DNA of 8,478 nt from a virus (taxonomy: Duplodnaviria > Heunggongvirae > Uroviricota > Caudoviricetes): the IMG/VR virus record IMGVR_UViG_2541047850_000013; one strand, written 5' to 3'. Below the pieces are notes generated by a model that saw only the letters and a program-made list of their open reading frames with translations, was not told the DNA's origin and ran no database searches. The translations under genes were made by a program, and so were the position numbers. This document shows, piece after piece, positions 401 through 6,768 of the stretch. Numbering within the stretch: position 1 is the stretch's first letter; every line of letters starts with the position of its first letter.

Positions 401-679
401 TTACCTCCAGATCCGTTGCTGGTATGTGCGGGATGGGCGCGGTGGGCGTTCGGAATAAGGGAGCCTGACATAGATTATCCAGTGACGATAATCGAGGCTG
501 AGGGCTTTCTTAACCTCGTATCCGCGCCTGCGGTAACACTGAATTATCCATTCCGCCTGCTCTTCAGTGCATGGAGGATGCTGGAACCAGTCTGATTTGA
601 ATACGTGAAAACGCCGTCCGCGCCTGCTGGCAAAGACGGCAGAATCATTAGAATTGTGTAATTTGGTATCGTGCGCCAT
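401..679 (-). CDS. Hypothetical small protein (92 aa), function unknown
   Basis: ORF-track ORF 401..760 trimmed to the first ATG (MAHDTKL...), because the listed start at 760 is a non-ATG codon lying inside the terminator hairpin. Basic, protein-like composition. Start choice uncertain. Confidence 0.35.
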   Translation of the reverse strand: MAHDTKLHNSNDSAVFASRRGRRFHVFKSDWFQHPPCTEEQAEWIIQCYRRRGYEVKKALSLDYRHWIIYVRLPYSERPPRPSRTYQQRIWR

Positions 680-751
680 CGGTTGTCTCTGCTGGCGCAG
701 CAGGTGCCAGTTGTTCAGGCTGGCGTGCGTATTGTAAACCAGAATGCCAGG

Positions 752-783
752 AAAAAACAAAACCCGCCGAAGCGGGTTTTTTG
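752..783. terminator. Bidirectional rho-independent terminator closing the methyltransferase cassette
   Basis: GC-rich hairpin AAACCCGC-CGAA-GCGGGTTT (760..779) with an A-run on the 5' side and a T-run on the 3' side, so either strand reads stem-loop followed by a U-tract. Sits 12 nt past the methyltransferase stop. Confidence 0.75.
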
Positions 784-794
784 TACATATAGAA

Positions 795-1892
795 TTATGG
801 TATTAATCCAGCTGTTCTTGCTTTATTAATATAATTTTTACAGTGGTTAGCCAAATACTCTGCAAACTTGCATGGAAGTGCATTTCCTATTATGACGCAT
901 ACTTTATCCATCAAAGCTGTATCAAACACATAGTTATCAGGAAAAGTCTGTAGTCTAGCAGCTTCTCGAACAGAAATAGTACGCGTATCCTCAGGATGTC
1001 CATATCGCCCACGGCTTAAAGTTGTGCACCCACCTGTAATCGTAGGCGATACGTCATCCCAAAGCATACGACCATAAACATTACTAAATCCTTTATAGTC
1101 GCCTTTATGGCAATCTGGACGGAGTTCTTCGGGAATACACTCCCAAGACATCCCTGGAACAGCCGCTTGTAACCGCTTTATATTGATCTCAGACAAATCC
1201 CTAACAATATGCCAACTCGACAATGGAAACTTCCCTTGCTTCTTAGCCTGTGAAAGAGTTAAGGGTTTTGGCATATCTCCAATAGCTTCTTTAACAGTTA
1301 CCCATTTGGGTTTCTCTCTTCCATCCTTAGAGTGTGATCCATCAGGCAATGGGATGGCAAATCCTTTTCCTGCCAACAGAACAAGCCTTTTTCTGAACTG
1401 TGGTACACCAAAGTCAGCTACTTGCAAAACTCCATAATTAACTATGTAACCAAGTTTTTTCAATCTCTCAATTACTGGCGAAAGAAGATGATTTCCCCGG
1501 GAAGCTAATCCAGGAACATTTTCCATCATGATTGCTGATGGATTGGTTTCTTCAACCAACCGTAACATCTCGTTAATCAATAAATTACGAGGGTCCTCCC
1601 TTTTATACTTGGCAGTGAGACTAGTAAATCCTTGACATGGCGGGCACGCAGATAAAAGATCTAAATGTTGCTCAGGGATAAGATTTAGGATATCACTCCC
1701 CTTTACAAACCGAATATCTTGAACAAAGAGTTTTGTCTCACGATGATTTGCTTGGAAAGTAGCGGCGGCATGTGCGTCCAGTTCAACGGCAGCTTTGACA
1801 TCAAACCCGGCCATTTTTAGTCCCATGGTTAGTCCCCCACCACCGCTAAATAGGTCAACTGCATTCAAACTGGTCACTGTTTTCTCACTCAT
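795..1892 (-). CDS. DNA (cytosine-5)-methyltransferase, 365 aa
   Basis: All diagnostic C5-MTase motifs in canonical order: motif I DLFSGGGG (aa 13-20, AdoMet binding), motif IV PPCQGF with catalytic Cys86, motif VI ENV (aa 124-126), motif VIII QFRKR (aa 165-169), motif IX RTISVREAARLQTFPDNY, motif X GNALP (aa 336-340). A variable target-recognition region lies between motifs VIII and IX. ATG at 1892 overlaps the upstream gene's stop. Confidence 0.93.
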   Translation of the reverse strand: MSEKTVTSLNAVDLFSGGGGLTMGLKMAGFDVKAAVELDAHAAATFQANHRETKLFVQDIRFVKGSDILNLIPEQHLDLLSACPPCQGFTSLTAKYKREDPRNLLINEMLRLVEETNPSAIMMENVPGLASRGNHLLSPVIERLKKLGYIVNYGVLQVADFGVPQFRKRLVLLAGKGFAIPLPDGSHSKDGREKPKWVTVKEAIGDMPKPLTLSQAKKQGKFPLSSWHIVRDLSEINIKRLQAAVPGMSWECIPEELRPDCHKGDYKGFSNVYGRMLWDDVSPTITGGCTTLSRGRYGHPEDTRTISVREAARLQTFPDNYVFDTALMDKVCVIIGNALPCKFAEYLANHCKNYINKARTAGLIP

Positions 1893-3996
1893 TATTTCCC
1901 AACTTCAACTGTTCTGCCTCATCCAAGAATTCTTGGTGAGTTTGAGTTGTCCTCAGCAAGAACCCTGCCCAATCAACGGGTGTTAGGCGTTTTTCTTCGA
2001 TGTATGCAGTATAAGCTTTACGACGTGCCCCACTCAAGCGCTCCCCATCACTTACCAGCGTAACGTGAAAATCAGATGCTATTGATTTAAAATCATTATG
2101 TCTCTCATCGTTCAAAAACTCCTCGAATGTTTCGAAGTAATTAATAATACGATCCATTTCATCATTGGAAATATAATGATGTGGCTTTTTTATTTCAATT
2201 ATTTGTAATTTTCCATCCTGACTAAACAATACAAAGTCTGGTCTTTTATTTTTTTTATCAAAATCTATAAGAAATATCTCCTCACCAGTTTTCTTTTTAT
2301 AAAATTTTTGAAATTCCCTTTTAAGCGTGGACAACGTTTTATTTGCTGTAACTGGGACCCATTGAGGGTTAACTAGCCACGGAGCGGATGCAATTAGATC
2401 TTGTAACTCATCTTCTGCTGTATCCTTTGCGTCTTTTAAAGACTCGAGACGCTCAATAATCTGAAGACGCTTTTTGACCTTTTGACCAAAACTAACGGTT
2501 TCAGCTAGTTGAGCCGTTGCTAAAATATCGTTGAGAACATTGAGCGGTGTATCCGCTTTACTGGAAGCTTCTATTAACTTCTCATCTAAGGATTGTAATG
2601 GTGCTAACATAATACTTAACTGCACTAAATTCTCGAGTGCATCAGGATCATGTAATTCATCACCTCGTAAAGATTTACCCAACAACTTGGCTATTTTTTT
2701 AGCCTGTGCTCGCATATCCTTTTGACCGGCTCCAGGGTATGCTTGCTCGACCTTATCCTCCACTTGCGCTAATTCGAAGAATTGATTCATCATATTATTT
2801 CTAAGGGGGTCGCGAGTTATTTTACCCACAAGTAAAATAACTTCTTGCCCCCAATTCTGAAATTGCGTTCCTAAATCATCAGACCATAGAATATCCCTTC
2901 TATCAGTTTGGATAAGATCTTCTTTTTCGTCTAACCAGTCAGCATGCAACTCACCTACCAAATATGAACGTATAGAGTGCTCTCCAGTAAAACCAGCTTT
3001 TCTATTAAAAACTGCTGTTTGCGCAGCAAACTTACCTCGGCAATAAATTCTAACACCTGCCATTAACTCGTCCTTATAAGGCTCTTTCGCGTATGCAATC
3101 CAACCTAATATCGGGTAAGCTTTCCCTTCATGTTCAAAACCGGCCTTAACAATTGATGAACGCGTGCCGTCAGGATTAAAAGCCGTATAATCACTTAAAT
3201 CCGTACAAGAATCTGTCGCAATACTTCCACTCATGGAACGAAATTCAATTTTAGAGTTAGGCATAACAGGAACAGTAAACTCTCCGACCTCAACTTCATA
3301 GTCAGGATTAGACTTTGTTTTCGAAGTATCAATCAGTTTAATATTCCAGTTTTTACTCTTCACTCCAAAACGTTGTGAAAGCTGCCGAGATAAATCTTTT
3401 ATTTCGCTAATTTTTCTATATTCAAAATCACTTAATATTATTTTAGTATAGGTCCTGTCACTTAGTGTGCCGTCTAAATCCCCAGTTTCCGGTTTATAAG
3501 ACACTGCAGTATCATCCATTATTTTTTCTTTATCTAGCTGAATATGAGCAACCTCATACCCTTCCTTTCCATCACGACTGATTTTTTCCCCACCGGCACT
3601 TATAATCTCGACCCTTTTACAAACACCAAAAGGTGCTAATTTCCCAACGCCTTTCCGTCCCATGACTTTGCGGTGAAACACCTTCGAGGTTTCACCTCTT
3701 TTTGGATCCTTACGTCTTTCTTTGCCAACAACCAAATAAAAGTTCTGTAGTTCATCAGGCGCCATTCCGACGCCATTATCTTCTACTTCTATTGTGACAT
3801 TTTTTGACCTGACAACACCATCCTGTCTAACAGCCAAGTATTGGCCCATAGGTGCTTTTATAGTGACATTAGTCGCATCTGCATCGTAACTGTTAGATAC
3901 TAATTCGGCTATAACAGCATAAGCCCTGTCATATAATTTCACACCTAATTTATCTACTGTCATCCTTGATATCTGCATTTCATATTGACGCGCCAT
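1885..3996 (-). CDS. GHKL-superfamily (MutL/MORC-like) ATPase with central helical region and C-terminal PD-(D/E)xK-like nuclease motif, 703 aa; candidate restriction/effector subunit
   Basis: ATG at 3996 with AGGA 7 nt upstream. Bergerat-fold motifs: N-box ELVSNSYDAD (aa 31-40), G1 box DNGVGM (aa 73-78), G2 box GRKGVGKLAPFG (aa 113-124). Residues about 440-540 are charged, helix-prone and coiled-coil-like. C-terminus GEEIFLIDFDKKNKRPDFVLFSQDGKLQIIEIKKP gives E573...PD587...E601-x-K603. Stop overlaps the methyltransferase start by 8 nt (ATGAGTGA). Confidence 0.85.
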   Translation of the reverse strand: MARQYEMQISRMTVDKLGVKLYDRAYAVIAELVSNSYDADATNVTIKAPMGQYLAVRQDGVVRSKNVTIEVEDNGVGMAPDELQNFYLVVGKERRKDPKRGETSKVFHRKVMGRKGVGKLAPFGVCKRVEIISAGGEKISRDGKEGYEVAHIQLDKEKIMDDTAVSYKPETGDLDGTLSDRTYTKIILSDFEYRKISEIKDLSRQLSQRFGVKSKNWNIKLIDTSKTKSNPDYEVEVGEFTVPVMPNSKIEFRSMSGSIATDSCTDLSDYTAFNPDGTRSSIVKAGFEHEGKAYPILGWIAYAKEPYKDELMAGVRIYCRGKFAAQTAVFNRKAGFTGEHSIRSYLVGELHADWLDEKEDLIQTDRRDILWSDDLGTQFQNWGQEVILLVGKITRDPLRNNMMNQFFELAQVEDKVEQAYPGAGQKDMRAQAKKIAKLLGKSLRGDELHDPDALENLVQLSIMLAPLQSLDEKLIEASSKADTPLNVLNDILATAQLAETVSFGQKVKKRLQIIERLESLKDAKDTAEDELQDLIASAPWLVNPQWVPVTANKTLSTLKREFQKFYKKKTGEEIFLIDFDKKNKRPDFVLFSQDGKLQIIEIKKPHHYISNDEMDRIINYFETFEEFLNDERHNDFKSIASDFHVTLVSDGERLSGARRKAYTAYIEEKRLTPVDWAGFLLRTTQTHQEFLDEAEQLKLGNNE

Positions 3997-4090
3997 TTAA
4001 ATATCCTTCTAAAAGAGTATTTTTTGCTCAAAAAGGGGAAGTTTATGTTTGACTAACATAGCAAAAAAACTTTCATCTTCAAGAGGTTCA
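3997..4090 (-). promoter_or_regulatory. RBS and AT-rich putative promoter region for the ATPase/methyltransferase cassette
   Basis: AGGA at 4004..4007 (minus strand), 7 nt from the ATG. Upstream sequence is very A+T-rich with weak sigma70-like hexamers (for example TTGAAG-16-TATGTT on the minus strand). No single convincing -35/-10 pair. Confidence 0.3.
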
Positions 4091-4343
4091 CACCAAAAGA
4101 ATTTACCTGGTTCACATAACCAGCTGGATTAGTGTTGAGTTTTGGGTAAACCTGAGGATTGAGAAACCAGTACTGATAAATGGGTATCCGCTGTTTTCGT
4201 CCCTCTCCTGAGCTACCGTGTATTGAAATGGCATCGACACTATTACATGGTAGGAGGTTGTATGTATGGTTTAGATATTTTGCATCTTTCACAGACACTT
4301 TTTACCTTTGCCATATCCTTCCACATTGTTTCTCCGGAAATCA

Positions 4344-4511
4344 CTAACGGTTTGGCATTTGCAGAACCATTATCAGCCATAGCTTCTTGCCGTTAACTTC
4401 GGTTGCACCTGATTGTTGCTCACCTTCAGGCAATGATGGGTTATATACACGGACTGAGCTCACTGCAGTAACAACCTTCCCAGTCAACTTACCTATGCTT
4501 TCAACCATCAT
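4344..4511 (-). CDS. Small hypothetical ORF (55 aa); coding status doubtful
   Basis: ORF-track ORF 4344..4565 trimmed to the first ATG (MMVESIGKL...); listed start is TTG. Weak RBS, and an alternative 46-codon ORF (4240..4380, minus strand) overlaps in another frame. Confidence 0.2.
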   Translation of the reverse strand: MMVESIGKLTGKVVTAVSSVRVYNPSLPEGEQQSGATEVNGKKLWLIMVLQMPNR

Positions 4512-4572
4512 CGTAGCGGCATACTTCCGAATTGCTATTATTTCAATTCTGCACCGTTTGCTCAATGTAACG

Positions 4573-4983
4573 CTACCTAAAACGTCGCCGATAGAACGCC
4601 AGCACGCGCTGCATAACTTCGCTCTTCCGGCACTCGCTACAGATTATGTTCTGACGCCTGTCATAACGACGTATTTCTCCATCAGGTAATGACCAGATAA
4701 GGTCCGGATCAACCGCAGATGGTTTCTTCAGCTTTGCCCTTGAGAGCTTTTTACGGGCATTTTGCCAGTCCTTACGCGCCTGTTCAGACGGGAATAACCC
4801 GTAACTAGGGTTGTATACATCGCCACTGGCAACCAGCTCTCTGGCCAGAACGCTCATCAGATATCTTGTTGCCCCAGTTTTAGCTTCCAGTTGTCGTAAC
4901 GTCTCACGCCCACTCTGGCGTACGAGTTCAAGAACCTGCCCTTTAATTTTTTCCCGCTCTTCTTGTGTAAAAACTTTTGCCAC
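4573..4983 (-). CDS. Ren-like protein (phage lambda ren family) with N-terminal extension, 136 aa
   Basis: GTG start at 4983 preceded by strong AGGAGG 4 nt upstream. Central KTGAT...LARELVASG and C-terminal SECRKSEVMQRVLAFY resemble, from memory, lambda Ren (…ALTGAT…MARAGLL… and …KECRQSAAMKRVLAVY…). Sits directly after the replication gene, as ren does in lambda. Confidence 0.5.
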   Translation of the reverse strand: MAKVFTQEEREKIKGQVLELVRQSGRETLRQLEAKTGATRYLMSVLARELVASGDVYNPSYGLFPSEQARKDWQNARKKLSRAKLKKPSAVDPDLIWSLPDGEIRRYDRRQNIICSECRKSEVMQRVLAFYRRRFR

Positions 4984-6008: not shown

Positions 6009-6434
6009 TTAGTGCATCACCACAGCATTCCCTGCCGGGCCGCCGCGATTCATCTGGTCATACAAAACAACCGCTGACGCAACAAAATCATCGACATCCT
6101 TCACCAGCCGATCCCTCCGTTCGACGATCTCACGGTAATATTCAGAACTGTGGCTGCGCATACGGGCCACCAGCAAAGGCGGCATCGCCTTTTCGATCGC
6201 CGGTAACAGAGCCTGCATTTTTTCAACAGCATCAGGGGTGTCTTTATCCAGCCAACGGAAAATTTTCTGGGTATTACGGGCCAGGGCTTCCGGATGGCTG
6301 TCGTCGTACAGTTCAGGGAACGTCATCCCCAGTTCGAAATAAGTCCGGGCTATTTCAGCTGCAGGAACTTTCTCACCATCAGGGTATGCCCAGGCATTCA
6401 TCGCCATGCGGATGTGCTCATGTTTGATTTTCAT
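6009..6434 (-). CDS. ydaT: YdaT-like protein (occupies the cII position; family reported toxic when derepressed in Rac prophage), 141 aa
   Basis: ATG at 6434 with AGAGG RBS; N-terminus MKIKHEHI... recalled as characteristic of YdaT-family proteins. Overlaps the upstream cro-like gene by 17 nt. Family assignment is from memory, not a search. Confidence 0.65.
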   Translation of the reverse strand: MKIKHEHIRMAMNAWAYPDGEKVPAAEIARTYFELGMTFPELYDDSHPEALARNTQKIFRWLDKDTPDAVEKMQALLPAIEKAMPPLLVARMRSHSSEYYREIVERRDRLVKDVDDFVASAVVLYDQMNRGGPAGNAVVMH

Positions 6435-6741
6435 GAATCATTTGCCTCTTGATGCTTCGGGTATGATCGTTTTCGTCATTTGGTTGCTTCATCGACATAT
6501 TCTGCGAATAACATGACGAGCGTCGTAAGTATGTCCAATCAACATCAGGACGAAGTTCTTCACACAGGACACCACCTTTTGTTGCTCGTTCAATCGCAGG
6601 ACATCTCTCAGCAGGTAACTGACGTACACCTTTGATCCATTGATTTACGCTTGGAGGAGATACACCTAAAAGCCTAGCCATTGCTGATTGCCCACCGACA
6701 ACAGCACAAGCTCGTTTGAATGAATAGTTATCTTTTTTCAT
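6418..6741 (-). CDS. ydaS: Cro-like HTH regulator of the YdaS family, 107 aa
   Basis: ATG at 6741 with GGAG 8 nt upstream (ORF-track start at 6762 is GTG and was trimmed). HTH region QSAMARLLGVSPPSVNQWIKG followed by the LPAERCPAIERAT motif recalled from YdaS/Cro-like proteins. Divergent from the repressor gene. Confidence 0.8.
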   Translation of the reverse strand: MKKDNYSFKRACAVVGGQSAMARLLGVSPPSVNQWIKGVRQLPAERCPAIERATKGGVLCEELRPDVDWTYLRRSSCYSQNMSMKQPNDENDHTRSIKRQMIHENQT

Positions 6742-6768
6742 CGAATGAACTCCAAAAAACACGCAACA

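What the first reader, a model, noticed from the sequence alone, without database searches (positions are those of the whole stretch)
1885..1892. Nuclease-first gene order with 8-nt overlap (ATGAGTGA) and no visible controller or separate methylase promoter
The putative effector is transcribed and translated before the methyltransferase, and the methyltransferase start codon overlaps the effector stop, implying translational coupling. I see no obvious internal promoter in the last 100 bp of the ATPase gene and no C-protein-like small HTH gene in the cassette. This raises the question of how self-damage is avoided on establishment. Either the effector is inert until triggered, or the methyltransferase is not a simple protective partner.
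Basis: inference. Interest (0 to 1): 0.45.

Follow-up and report, generated by a model that had tools for sequence, protein, structure and literature searches.

The report
Nuclease-first restriction-modification cassette in prophage
A small restriction-modification cassette in an E. coli prophage puts the DNA-cutting enzyme's gene just before the gene of its protective methylase, overlapping it; this layout is already known, and a probable separate methylase promoter lies hidden inside the nuclease gene.

Summary
On the minus strand a 703-aa GHKL-ATPase/nuclease gene (1885..3996) ends in TGA inside ATGAGTGA, whose ATG opens a 365-aa C5-cytosine methyltransferase gene (795..1892). The cassette has no controller gene.

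It is a self-contained insert of about 3.4 kb in a Rac-like E. coli prophage, with its own candidate promoter and a terminator. It is present in 21 of 5426 complete genomes.

Nuclease-first order with a tight junction (-41 to +12 nt) holds in 40 of 49 close relatives across many phyla. It is a family trait, not a local oddity.

The claim of no separate methylase promoter is probably wrong. Its hexamers are kept at all four synonymous positions in six relatives. This is unique among 693 comparable windows.

The establishment puzzle is already described for EcoRI, SalI and Eco29kI, where a promoter inside the nuclease gene solves it.

The nuclease is a full-length but sub-threshold homologue of the BbrUII/HgiDII restriction enzymes. 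It shares the architecture of the stand-alone GHKL-Shedu nuclease VcSduA, so a latent nuclease is not excluded. Its specificity is unknown.

Verdict: ordinary, a new member of a known kind.

The parts
4055..4082 (-). Candidate cassette promoter P_R. It reads TTGAAG (4082..4077), a 16-nt spacer ending in TGc (extended -10), then TATGTT (4060..4055). It would give a 5' UTR of about 50 nt.
   Evidence: Read. It scores 8 of 12 plus the TG, so it falls below the threshold of the scan. The block GAACCTCTTGAAGA..TTTTTTGCTATGTTAG is nearly invariant in 5 of 6 relatives, while the sequence downstream of it diverges. Homology between cassettes in different hosts begins only about 20-45 nt upstream of it. 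This is inference; the promoter is not mapped.
3997..4054 (-). Leader of the nuclease gene. It has a second conserved block, TGAGCAAAAAAT(A/G)CTCTT, at about 4031..4013, and a Shine-Dalgarno sequence AGAAGGA 7 nt before the ATG.
   Evidence: A 9-nt perfect inverted repeat (4020-4028 / 4060-4068) links this block to the promoter spacer. Its role is unknown.
3307..3996 (-). Nuclease gene, N-terminal GHKL (Bergerat-fold) ATPase domain, aa 1 to about 230. E31, N35, D38, D40, D73-x-G-x-G77 and the G113-G124 lid are invariant.
   Evidence: Pfam HATPase_c_3, 7.2e-19. Invariant columns in 16 and 62 homologues. PDB profile search hits HtpG and TRAP1. Foldseek hits Hsp90, MORC2, SMCHD1 and MLH1.
2377..3306 (-). 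Nuclease gene, middle part. A beta-rich transducer-like domain (aa about 231-370) is followed by a long helical region (aa about 371-540).
   Evidence: AlphaFold2 model, pLDDT 78.5. Foldseek alignments of 400-530 columns (two outliers above 800) to two-domain GHKL ATPase modules. The domain borders are approximate.
1885..2376 (-). Nuclease gene, C-terminal PD-(D/E)xK-type (DUF4263/Shedu-like) nuclease domain, aa about 541-703. D587 (2238..2236) and K603 (2190..2188) are invariant; E601 (2196..2194) is invariant in 16 homologues and kept in at least 90% of 62.
   Evidence: PADLOC SduA, 1.7e-5. Pfam HSDR_N_2, 4e-4. PF14082 is on record for several homologues. The model of the domain gives weak matches: MspJI nuclease domain 2e-3, B. 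cereus Shedu nuclease 6e-3, and FokI. The motif is conserved.
2008..2037 (-). Candidate internal methylase promoter P_M inside the nuclease gene. It reads TTGAGT (2037..2032), 18 nt, TATACT (2013..2008), and ends 116 nt upstream of the methylase ATG.
   Evidence: Found by the scan. It sits at the same aligned position in all enterobacterial relatives, and is TATAAT in Citrobacter. Third codon positions are invariant at 13.9% overall but at 4 of 4 within the hexamers. This holds for 1 of 693 same-frame windows. The promoter is predicted, not mapped.
1885..1892 (-). Junction ATGAGTGA. The methylase ATG (1892..1890) overlaps the nuclease stop TGA (1887..1885). A weak GGGA Shine-Dalgarno-like element lies 5 nt upstream.
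   Evidence: Conserved in 4 of 6 near relatives. The junction RNA has no special structure (z = 0.31).
795..1892 (-). C5-cytosine DNA methyltransferase gene (365 aa). Motifs FSGGGG, PPCQGF, ENV, QFRKR and GNA are all present.
   Evidence: PF00145, 6e-58. TIGR00675, 154 bits against a cut-off of 100.65. PADLOC MTase_II, 8.9e-91. PDB matches to DNMT1, M.HaeIII and M.HhaI.
749..780 (-). Intrinsic terminator closing the cassette: AAAACCCGCTTCGGCGGGTTTT followed by a T run.
   Evidence: 9-bp stem with 5 GC pairs. It is conserved in the Serratia and Citrobacter copies of the cassette, and homology ends there.

Best explanation
This is a compact, horizontally mobile Type II-like restriction-modification cassette. 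It consists of a promoter, the nuclease gene, the methylase gene and a terminator, and spans about window 4100 to 750 on the minus strand. It is inserted as a low-GC insert between the replication genes and the nin/Q region of a Rac-like E. coli prophage.

The nuclease is a GHKL-ATPase + transducer + PD-(D/E)xK protein, a sister family of the BbrUII/HgiDII restriction enzymes. The partner is an ordinary Dcm-type C5 methyltransferase that marks host DNA as self.

Both genes are transcribed from a cassette promoter upstream of the nuclease gene. The methylase is translated from the bicistronic mRNA by termination-reinitiation at the overlapping or abutting junction. The methylase is also made from its own promoter inside the 3' part of the nuclease gene (TTGAGT-18-TATACT, 2037..2008). 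Methylase transcripts therefore always outnumber nuclease transcripts. That surplus protects a naive host without a C protein, as in EcoRI, SalI and Eco29kI. It is probably helped by slow maturation of a large ATP-dependent dimeric nuclease.

Shown here: the gene anatomy, the domains, the cassette limits, the family-wide gene order, and the synonymous-site constraint on the internal promoter hexamers.

Inferred: that the promoters fire, that translation is coupled, that methylation blocks cleavage, and the recognition sequence, which is unknown.
For: - Anatomy and overlap.
- Domains: GHKL, complete C5 methylase, and a full-length match to NF050001 'BbrUII/HgiDII family restriction enzyme' at 237 bits.
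- Catalytic residues conserved in 62 homologues. Fold matches.
- Cassette limits, own terminator and low GC (0.35-0.44 across the cassette against about 0.50-0.57 in the flanks).
- The same cassette occurs in a Citrobacter lambdoid prophage, a Pantoea conjugative element and next to a Serratia integrase. It is in 21 of 5426 complete E. coli genomes, always with both genes intact.
- A start for a same-strand Dcm-like gene could be assigned -41 to +12 nt from the nuclease stop in 40 of 49 close-clade loci from many phyla. In six more the methylase reading frame abuts or overlaps the stop. The same holds in L088-L093.
- The internal promoter candidate is positionally conserved. It is the only one of 693 same-frame windows with all four hexamer third-codon positions invariant in four sequences, where the background is 20.8%, and in six sequences, where it is 13.9%.
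- Precedent: nuclease-first operons use an intragenic methylase promoter (PMC3113576).
- M.HgiDII and M.BbrUII are characterised m5C methylases for GTCGAC. Premethylation with M.BbrUII and M.BbrUIII raises transformation of B. breve more than 1000-fold (PMC5867850, PMC5005818, PMC5829577).
Against: - The number of promoter-like sites in the region equals the chance expectation (10 found, 10.0 +/- 3.3 expected). The sites alone prove nothing.
- Both promoter candidates are moderate matches to the consensus and none is mapped.
- The internal promoter is not conserved outside the enterobacterial subgroup. That is expected for a promoter, but it limits the depth of the test.
- No conserved antisense promoter was found, unlike EcoRI and Eco29kI.
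- The nuclease scores well below the equivalog cut-off of the only characterised family (237 against 550). Restriction activity, sequence specificity and methylation sensitivity are therefore extrapolated.
- Same-architecture proteins work without a methylase (VcSduA). A homologue examined in Nocardia has no methylase nearby.
Confidence: 0.6

Rival explanations
1. Latent-nuclease reading. The GHKL-nuclease is a Shedu-type (type 1D) effector. Its ATPase/transducer module keeps it inactive until it is triggered, for example by ATP-driven dimerisation on invading DNA or on DNA ends. Gene order is then harmless whatever the promoters do. The coupled methylase only adds a 'self' mark that limits autoimmunity once the enzyme is switched on.
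For: - The architecture is GHKL + middle domain + DUF4263-like nuclease.
- VcSduA has the same architecture, is a single-gene defence, and needs both the ATPase glutamate and the nuclease lysine (PMC12137116).
- Full-length B. cereus Shedu is auto-inhibited and non-toxic. The GHKL class is listed as Shedu type 1D (bioRxiv 10.1101/2023.08.10.552793).
- A 35%-identical homologue in Nocardia (L078) has no methylase among the larger ORFs within about 2.5 kb. None of five Nocardia loci has a Dcm-like gene in the 5-kb flanks.
- Iyer et al. noted stand-alone paraMORC3 genes.
Against: - In the window's own clade, 46 of 49 loci have a Dcm-like gene directly after the nuclease stop (40 with an assigned start -41 to +12 nt from it), and decayed loci lose both genes. 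This argues that the methylase is needed.
- The characterised relatives HgiDII and BbrUII behave as ordinary site-specific Type II enzymes countered by their methylases.
- The synonymous constraint on an internal methylase promoter suggests selection for extra methylase.
Confidence: 0.22
2. Coupling-only reading. There is no functional internal promoter. A single bicistronic mRNA with termination-reinitiation fixes the methylase-to-nuclease ratio. Establishment is safe simply because the cassette promoter is weak and the nuclease needs dimerisation and ATP.
For: - The tight junction is conserved across phyla, where no particular promoter could be conserved.
- The Shine-Dalgarno-like element before the methylase ATG is weak.
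- The count of promoter-like sites is at chance level.
Against: - The hexamers at 2037..2008 are uniquely conserved at synonymous sites.
- All three nuclease-first systems studied experimentally rely on an intragenic methylase promoter.
- Citrobacter lost the overlapping ATG yet keeps, and improves, the -10 hexamer to TATAAT.
Confidence: 0.13
3. Not a cognate pair. The methylase would serve the phage, for example as anti-restriction or epigenetic marking. The ATPase-nuclease would be an unrelated or modification-dependent enzyme that merely sits next to it.
For: Lambdoid prophages often carry orphan methylases. One lies about 3 kb downstream in L001.
Against: - The two genes travel together as one promoter-to-terminator unit in four kinds of mobile element.
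- They stay adjacent in 46 of 49 close-clade loci.
- A modification-dependent nuclease coupled to its own methylase would be suicidal.
- Vsr genes, which go with m5C methylases, accompany the pair in relatives.
Confidence: 0.03

Closest known systems
BbrUII/HgiDII family Type II restriction enzymes with their m5C methyltransferases (NCBIfam NF050001; GTCGAC)
   Same: - The nuclease gives a full-length HMM match (aa 5-697 against profile positions 1-648 of 659).
- It has an N-terminal GHKL domain plus a long C-terminal part, as described for R.HgiDII (PMC2441816).
- It is partnered with a C5 methyltransferase, and Vsr is often nearby in relatives.
   Different: - The score is 237 bits against a cut-off of 550. 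A true member, the 'ParaMORC3' of phage PhiR44_1, scores 751.
- Identity to the more distant relatives, which themselves score only 226-266 bits on NF050001, is about 35%.
- Their methylases match the window's methylase only weakly (60-85 bits against more than 400 within the clade). The recognition sequence is therefore probably not GTCGAC.
- Gene order differs in those relatives: convergent in PhiR44_1, methylase first in Yersinia phage P37, and nuclease-vsr-methylase in Chloroflexota.
EcoRI, SalI and Eco29kI: nuclease-first Type II operons without a C protein
   Same: - The nuclease gene precedes the methylase gene in one operon, and the genes partly overlap, as in Eco29kI.
- There is no controller gene, and the methylase has no extra DNA-binding domain.
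- A candidate methylase promoter lies inside the 3' part of the nuclease gene.
   Different: - The proteins are unrelated. Those nucleases are small, ATP-independent enzymes.
- No conserved antisense promoter was found here.
- The promoter here is predicted, not mapped.
paraMORC3 / Shedu type 1D (GHKL + DUF4263), e.g. VcSduA of Vibrio cholerae
   Same: - The domain order is the same: a GHKL ATPase with intact motifs, an Hsp90/MORC-like middle domain, and a C-terminal PD-(D/E)xK nuclease.
- The catalytic glutamate near residue 30 and the lysine near residue 600 correspond to VcSduA E27 and K557.
   Different: - VcSduA and classical Shedu are single-gene systems. Here the nuclease is tightly coupled to a methyltransferase.
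- Pfam's own scan of the window protein did not report PF14082. Only weak HSDR_N and PADLOC SduA matches were found.
C-protein-controlled Type II systems (PvuII, BamHI, Esp1396I type)
   Same: Both face the same problem: delaying the nuclease relative to the methylase when the genes enter a new host.
   Different: No C gene or HTH ORF lies within the cassette limits. None was seen next to the pair in any of the annotated relatives.

Membership tests
BbrUII/HgiDII family restriction enzyme (NCBIfam NF050001, equivalog) | Whole-protein HMM score at or above the curated cut-off of 550 bits | tested here: not met
   237.4 bits, E 3.2e-70, full-length alignment. Positive control: phage PhiR44_1 'ParaMORC3' scores 751 bits.
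BbrUII/HgiDII family restriction enzyme (NCBIfam NF050001, equivalog) | N-terminal GHKL domain plus a C-terminal nuclease part, encoded next to an m5C methyltransferase | tested here: met
BbrUII/HgiDII family restriction enzyme (NCBIfam NF050001, equivalog) | Recognition and cleavage of GTCGAC, blocked by m5C methylation | not testable with these tools
   The methylase is only distantly related to those of the more distant nuclease-family relatives (60-85 bits), which argues against the same specificity.
Type II restriction-modification system | Separate methyltransferase with all catalytic motifs | tested here: met
   PF00145 covers aa 10-352. Motifs I, IV, VI, VIII and X are read in the translation.
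Type II restriction-modification system | Endonuclease with an intact nuclease active site | tested here: met
   D587 and K603 are invariant, and E601 is kept in at least 90% of 62 homologues. Matches to PD-(D/E)xK folds are weak.
Type II restriction-modification system | Nuclease and methylase act on the same sequence, and methylation blocks cleavage | not testable with these tools
   Only co-inheritance supports it: 46 of 49 close-clade loci have a Dcm-like gene directly after the nuclease stop.
Nuclease-first operons with an intragenic methylase promoter (EcoRI/SalI/Eco29kI class) | Nuclease gene upstream of the methylase gene on one strand, with no C gene | tested here: met
Nuclease-first operons with an intragenic methylase promoter (EcoRI/SalI/Eco29kI class) | Functional methylase promoter inside the nuclease gene | tested here: inconclusive
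   The candidate at 2037..2008 is conserved at synonymous sites (1 of 693 windows). No transcription data are available.
Nuclease-first operons with an intragenic methylase promoter (EcoRI/SalI/Eco29kI class) | Antisense promoters inside the nuclease gene | tested here: not met
   Within the nuclease gene there is one + strand site (2065..2093). It is not conserved in relatives.
paraMORC3 / Shedu type 1D (GHKL-DUF4263) | GHKL ATPase with intact ATP-binding motifs plus an S5/transducer-like middle domain | tested here: met
paraMORC3 / Shedu type 1D (GHKL-DUF4263) | C-terminal DUF4263 (PF14082) PD-(D/E)xK nuclease domain | tested here: inconclusive
   PADLOC SduA 1.7e-5. PF14082 is on record (weak) for homologues P0007, P0009 and others. 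It was not reported for the window protein. Foldseek match to the B. cereus Shedu nuclease: 6e-3, probability 0.82.
paraMORC3 / Shedu type 1D (GHKL-DUF4263) | Single-gene defence acting without a cognate methylase | tested here: not met
   The methylase is translationally abutted and co-inherited.
C-protein-regulated R-M system | Small HTH controller gene and C-box operators in the cassette | tested here: not met
   No HTH ORF lies within the cassette limits. Only an A/T-rich 9-nt inverted repeat is present in the leader.

The most novel reading that the evidence does not exclude
The nuclease would be an ATP-gated, normally latent Shedu-type enzyme that has been domesticated into a restriction-modification pair. 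The GHKL/transducer module would license cleavage only after a conformational trigger. The coupled Dcm methylation would act as a veto on self DNA. Nuclease-first order would be tolerated across the whole family because the nuclease is intrinsically safe on arrival. This would make the BbrUII/HgiDII-like enzymes a mechanistic bridge between classical Type II restriction and single-gene Shedu immunity.
Probability: 0.2. Interest if true: 0.55.

Novelty: new member of a known kind. Interest (0 to 1): 0.27.

Why it matters
For the question asked, the result is mostly a clarification. The odd gene order is a recognised and largely solved layout, and the sequence holds a good candidate for the usual solution.

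It has some wider value. GHKL-ATPase restriction enzymes have no solved structure, and no biochemical study of the ATPase was found in the literature searched. They are widespread, with more than 1600 homologues. This clade is carried by prophages, P2-like phages and conjugative elements in enterobacteria.

A well-delimited 3.4-kb E. coli cassette is a convenient model. It could show what ATP does in such an enzyme. It could also show how these enzymes relate to the stand-alone GHKL-Shedu nucleases.

Tried and rejected
1. RNA structure at the junction that could gate methylase translation. The fold of 1840..1970(-) is no better than shuffles (z = 0.31). Rejected.
2. Known RNA elements. There is no Rfam match in the window.
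3. The strongest promoter-like hit, 2198..2170 (TTGAAA-17-TATATT, 10 of 12). It overlaps the catalytic I-E-I-K codons and is lost in Serratia. It is not favoured as a conserved element.
4. A second site shared by all four relatives, at 2636..2609. Its -35 hexamer varies and it lies 720 nt from the methylase gene. Not pursued.
5. Antisense promoters as in Eco29kI. None is conserved.
6. Controller or HTH genes in relatives. Simple ORF calling in high-GC MAG loci was too noisy. I relied instead on the Pfam-annotated loci, which show none.
7. Recognition sequence. The PDB search gives only generic C5 methylases. No route to the specificity was found.
8. Solved structures of the nuclease family. 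Only the GHKL domain matches. The fold search with the C-terminal domain gave only weak PD-(D/E)xK matches.
9. Original papers on BbrII (PMC3815753) and the final Shedu paper (PMC11805627) are not held. Citing papers and the preprint were used instead.
10. The idea that the more distant genome loci are the true HgiDII family. Rejected, because they also score only 200-330 bits on NF050001.
Full report
**1. Observation**

All genes of interest lie on the minus strand. The ORF 1885..3996 (703 aa, ATG start) ends with TGA at 1887..1885. The ORF 795..1892 (365 aa) starts with ATG at 1892..1890. The + strand reads TCACTCAT at 1885..1892, which is ATGAGTGA on the coding strand. RefSeq annotation of an identical stretch, in E. 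coli B2.3, gives the same two CDS with the same overlap.

The overlap depends on choosing the first ATG. A GTG at codon 6 (1877..1875) would give a 7-nt gap instead. Relatives show that the start is evolutionarily mobile (section 4).

**2. What the genes are**

The upstream protein has the following features.
- It has an N-terminal GHKL ATPase domain (HATPase_c_3, 7.2e-19). There are weak C-terminal matches to HSDR_N and to the Shedu nuclease SduA.
- It matches NCBIfam NF050001, 'BbrUII/HgiDII family restriction enzyme', from end to end. The score is only 237 bits against a cut-off of 550.
- In alignments of 16 and 62 homologues, the Bergerat-fold residues are invariant: E31, N35, D38, D40, D73-x-G-x-G77 and the G113-G124 lid. 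In the C-terminal D587...E601-I-K603 motif, D587 and K603 are also invariant, and E601 is kept in at least 90% of the 62.
- An AlphaFold2 model (pLDDT 78.5) matches two-domain GHKL modules over 400-530 alignment columns. The matches are Hsp90/TRAP1, MORC2, SMCHD1 and MLH1.
- A separate model of the last 184 residues (pLDDT 78.9) gives only weak matches, though they agree with each other. They are the MspJI nuclease domain (2e-3), the B. cereus Shedu nuclease (6e-3), FokI, NucS and Mus81/XPF.
- No member of the family has a solved structure.

The downstream protein is a complete C5 methyltransferase with all catalytic motifs and no extra DNA-binding domain.

**3. Context and limits of the cassette**

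The window is part of a Rac/Qin-like lambdoid prophage at tRNA-Ser/mtfA. The gene order is racR, then ydaS, ydaT, a ydaU-like gene, DUF977, the nuclease and methylase genes, a hypothetical gene, DUF968, rusA and Q.

The pair has low GC, 0.35-0.44 against about 0.50-0.57 in the flanks. It ends in a strong terminator at 780..759.

The same pair occurs in three other kinds of element, at 78-91% protein identity:
- in a Citrobacter lambdoid prophage, at the same kind of position;
- in a Pantoea conjugative element with ArdC and TraF;
- next to a Serratia integrase.

Alignments of the flanks show where homology runs. It starts only about 100-125 nt upstream of the nuclease ATG and stops at the terminator. 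The mobile unit is therefore a promoter-to-terminator insert of about 3.4 kb with two genes and no room for a controller.

Within the conserved leader the best promoter candidate is TTGAAG-16-(TGc)TATGTT at 4082..4055. It is invariant in 5 of 6 relatives.

The cassette is in 21 of 5426 complete E. coli genomes. In all of them both genes are intact.

**4. Is the gene order a peculiarity?**

It is not. A scan of one genome per species returned 80 loci.
- In the clade at 46% identity or more (49 loci; Desulfovibrio, Nitrospira, Acidobacteria, Planctomycetes, cyanobacteria, alpha- and gamma-proteobacteria and others), 46 have a closely related Dcm-type gene on the same strand directly after the nuclease stop.
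- Where a start could be assigned (40 loci), the junctions run from -41 to +12 nt. The 4-nt overlap is commonest.
- Further metagenomic relatives show +4, +3 and -11 nt.
- Among six near relatives, four keep ATGAGTGA. Citrobacter has lost the ATG and must use GTG or TTG 10-19 nt downstream. Pantoea overlaps by 20 nt.
- What is conserved is the absence of an intergenic space, not the particular overlap. This fits co-transcription and termination-reinitiation coupling. The GGGA element before the ATG is a weak Shine-Dalgarno sequence, and the junction RNA has no special fold.
- In more distant relatives (34-40% identity) the arrangement varies. It can be nuclease-vsr-methylase, a divergent methylase, or no methylase at all. 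In P2-like phages it is convergent or methylase-first.

**5. The 'missing' methylase promoter**

The consensus scan finds 10 promoter-like sites in 600..4700, exactly the number expected by chance. Sites alone therefore mean nothing.

I asked which sites stay in place in the relatives. Two sense-strand sites are present at the same aligned column in all four enterobacterial sequences first compared (E. coli, Serratia, Citrobacter, Pantoea). One of them, TTGAGT-18-TATACT at 2037..2008, ends 116 nt upstream of the methylase ATG. In Citrobacter it reads TATAAT.

The hexamers encode L654-S655 and Y663-T664. Their four third-codon positions are invariant in all six sequences, although only 13.9% of third positions in the gene are. 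Among 693 windows of the same geometry and frame this is the only one with that property. Only 3 of the 693 have 11 or more of 12 columns invariant. The spacer and the neighbouring third positions vary freely.

This is real, though indirect, evidence for selection on the DNA sequence beyond the protein. The site is not kept in relatives at 63-66% identity from other taxa. No antisense site is conserved.

**6. Comparison with what is known**

SalI, EcoRI and Eco29kI are organised 'in a counterintuitive way', with the nuclease gene first, no operator and no C protein. All three have a promoter inside the nuclease gene that alone gives enough methylase. EcoRI and Eco29kI also have antisense promoters that hold the nuclease down (PMC3113576).

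The protein family is also known.
- R.HgiDII was described in 2008 as a GHKL domain plus an unassigned C-terminal domain (PMC2441816).
- Iyer et al. defined paraMORC3 as GHKL + S5 + a restriction-endonuclease-fold domain in R-M contexts, with some stand-alone members (PMC2292703).
- M.HgiDII and M.BbrUII are m5C methylases for GTCGAC (PMC5867850, PMC5005818).

The window's nuclease fails the equivalog threshold. A true member, in phage PhiR44_1, scores 751 bits. The methylases of the more distant relatives, none of which passes the equivalog threshold either, match the window's methylase only weakly. I therefore file the window's system as a sister subfamily of unknown specificity.

The same architecture has recently been shown to work as a single-gene Shedu defence. 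This is VcSduA, in which both the ATPase and the nuclease residues are required (PMC12137116). GHKL-Shedu is classed as type 1D.

**7. Mechanism and verdict**

Most likely (0.6) this is an ordinary R-M operon of the nuclease-first class. The methylase would be supplied both by coupling from the cassette promoter and by its own intragenic promoter.

The main rival (about 0.2) is that the ATP-gated nuclease is latent on arrival, as in Shedu, so that gene order does not matter. The strict co-inheritance of the methylase in this clade, and the constraint on the internal promoter, argue against it. Stand-alone homologues keep it alive.

The finding is real but already explained in kind. It is a new, uncharacterised member of a known family in a known operon layout. 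Specificity, ATP dependence and promoter activity remain to be measured.

Noticed in passing
window 4020-4028 and 4060-4068: A perfect 9-nt inverted repeat (TTTTTTGCT / AGCAAAAAA) with 31 nt between the arms. One arm lies in the spacer of the candidate cassette promoter. The other lies in a second conserved block of the leader. It is kept in L096, L097 and Citrobacter and degraded in Serratia. It could be an operator pair or chance in A/T-rich DNA.
   Followed up: partly
L051, L056, L061, L067, L068, L069, L025 (between nuclease and methylase genes); L046 (between them, on the opposite strand); L090 (upstream); L092 (downstream): A Vsr (very-short-patch repair) endonuclease gene accompanies the nuclease-methylase pair in many relatives, at varying positions. 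The window's cassette has none. This fits the methylase being a real m5C methylase whose deamination damage needs repair.
   Followed up: partly
L078 4956-6992 and flanks (Nocardia; also L073, L075, L080, L081): A full-length homologue of the nuclease (about 35% identity) has no methyltransferase among the ORFs of 150 aa or more within about 2.5 kb in L078. None of the five Nocardia loci has a Dcm-like match in its flanks. These look like stand-alone members of the superfamily.
   Followed up: partly
L094 3492-6540 (Escherichia phage PhiR44_1) and L095 2429-5474 (Yersinia phage P37): P2-like phages carry related GHKL-nuclease + Dcm pairs in the hotspot next to the replication gene. PhiR44_1's 'ParaMORC3' is a bona fide BbrUII/HgiDII family member (751 bits) with a convergent Dcm. 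Phage P37 has the methylase first, with a 4-nt gap.
   Followed up: partly
window 4120-4572: About 450 nt between the DUF977 stop and the conserved cassette leader have no ORF with a family match. They are not shared with the cassette in Serratia, Citrobacter or Pantoea. All 21 E. coli carriers do have them. Their origin and role are unknown.
   Followed up: no
window 749-780: The cassette's strong intrinsic terminator sits inside the prophage's rightward early operon, upstream of rusA and the Q antiterminator gene. Lytic development must read through it.
   Followed up: no
window 3511-3546: This is the stretch of highest synonymous conservation in the nuclease gene (5 of 8 third positions invariant in six relatives). 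It is an A-rich run, GAT AAA GAA AAA ATA ATG GAT GA. It may reflect limited codon choice rather than a hidden element.
   Followed up: no
window 6418-6434: The ydaS-like (6418..6762) and ydaT-like (6009..6434) genes of the prophage immunity region also overlap, by 17 nt. Compared with other carriers of the cassette (L001), this prophage lacks the DnaC-like and DUF1627 genes between the ydaU-like gene and DUF977.
   Followed up: no
L083 6100-6130 (Citrobacter copy of the cassette): The overlapping ATG is replaced by ATT, and a 1-nt deletion follows. The methylase must therefore start at GTG or TTG, 10-19 nt after the nuclease stop. Two gene callers chose different starts (6128 and 6170).
   Followed up: yes
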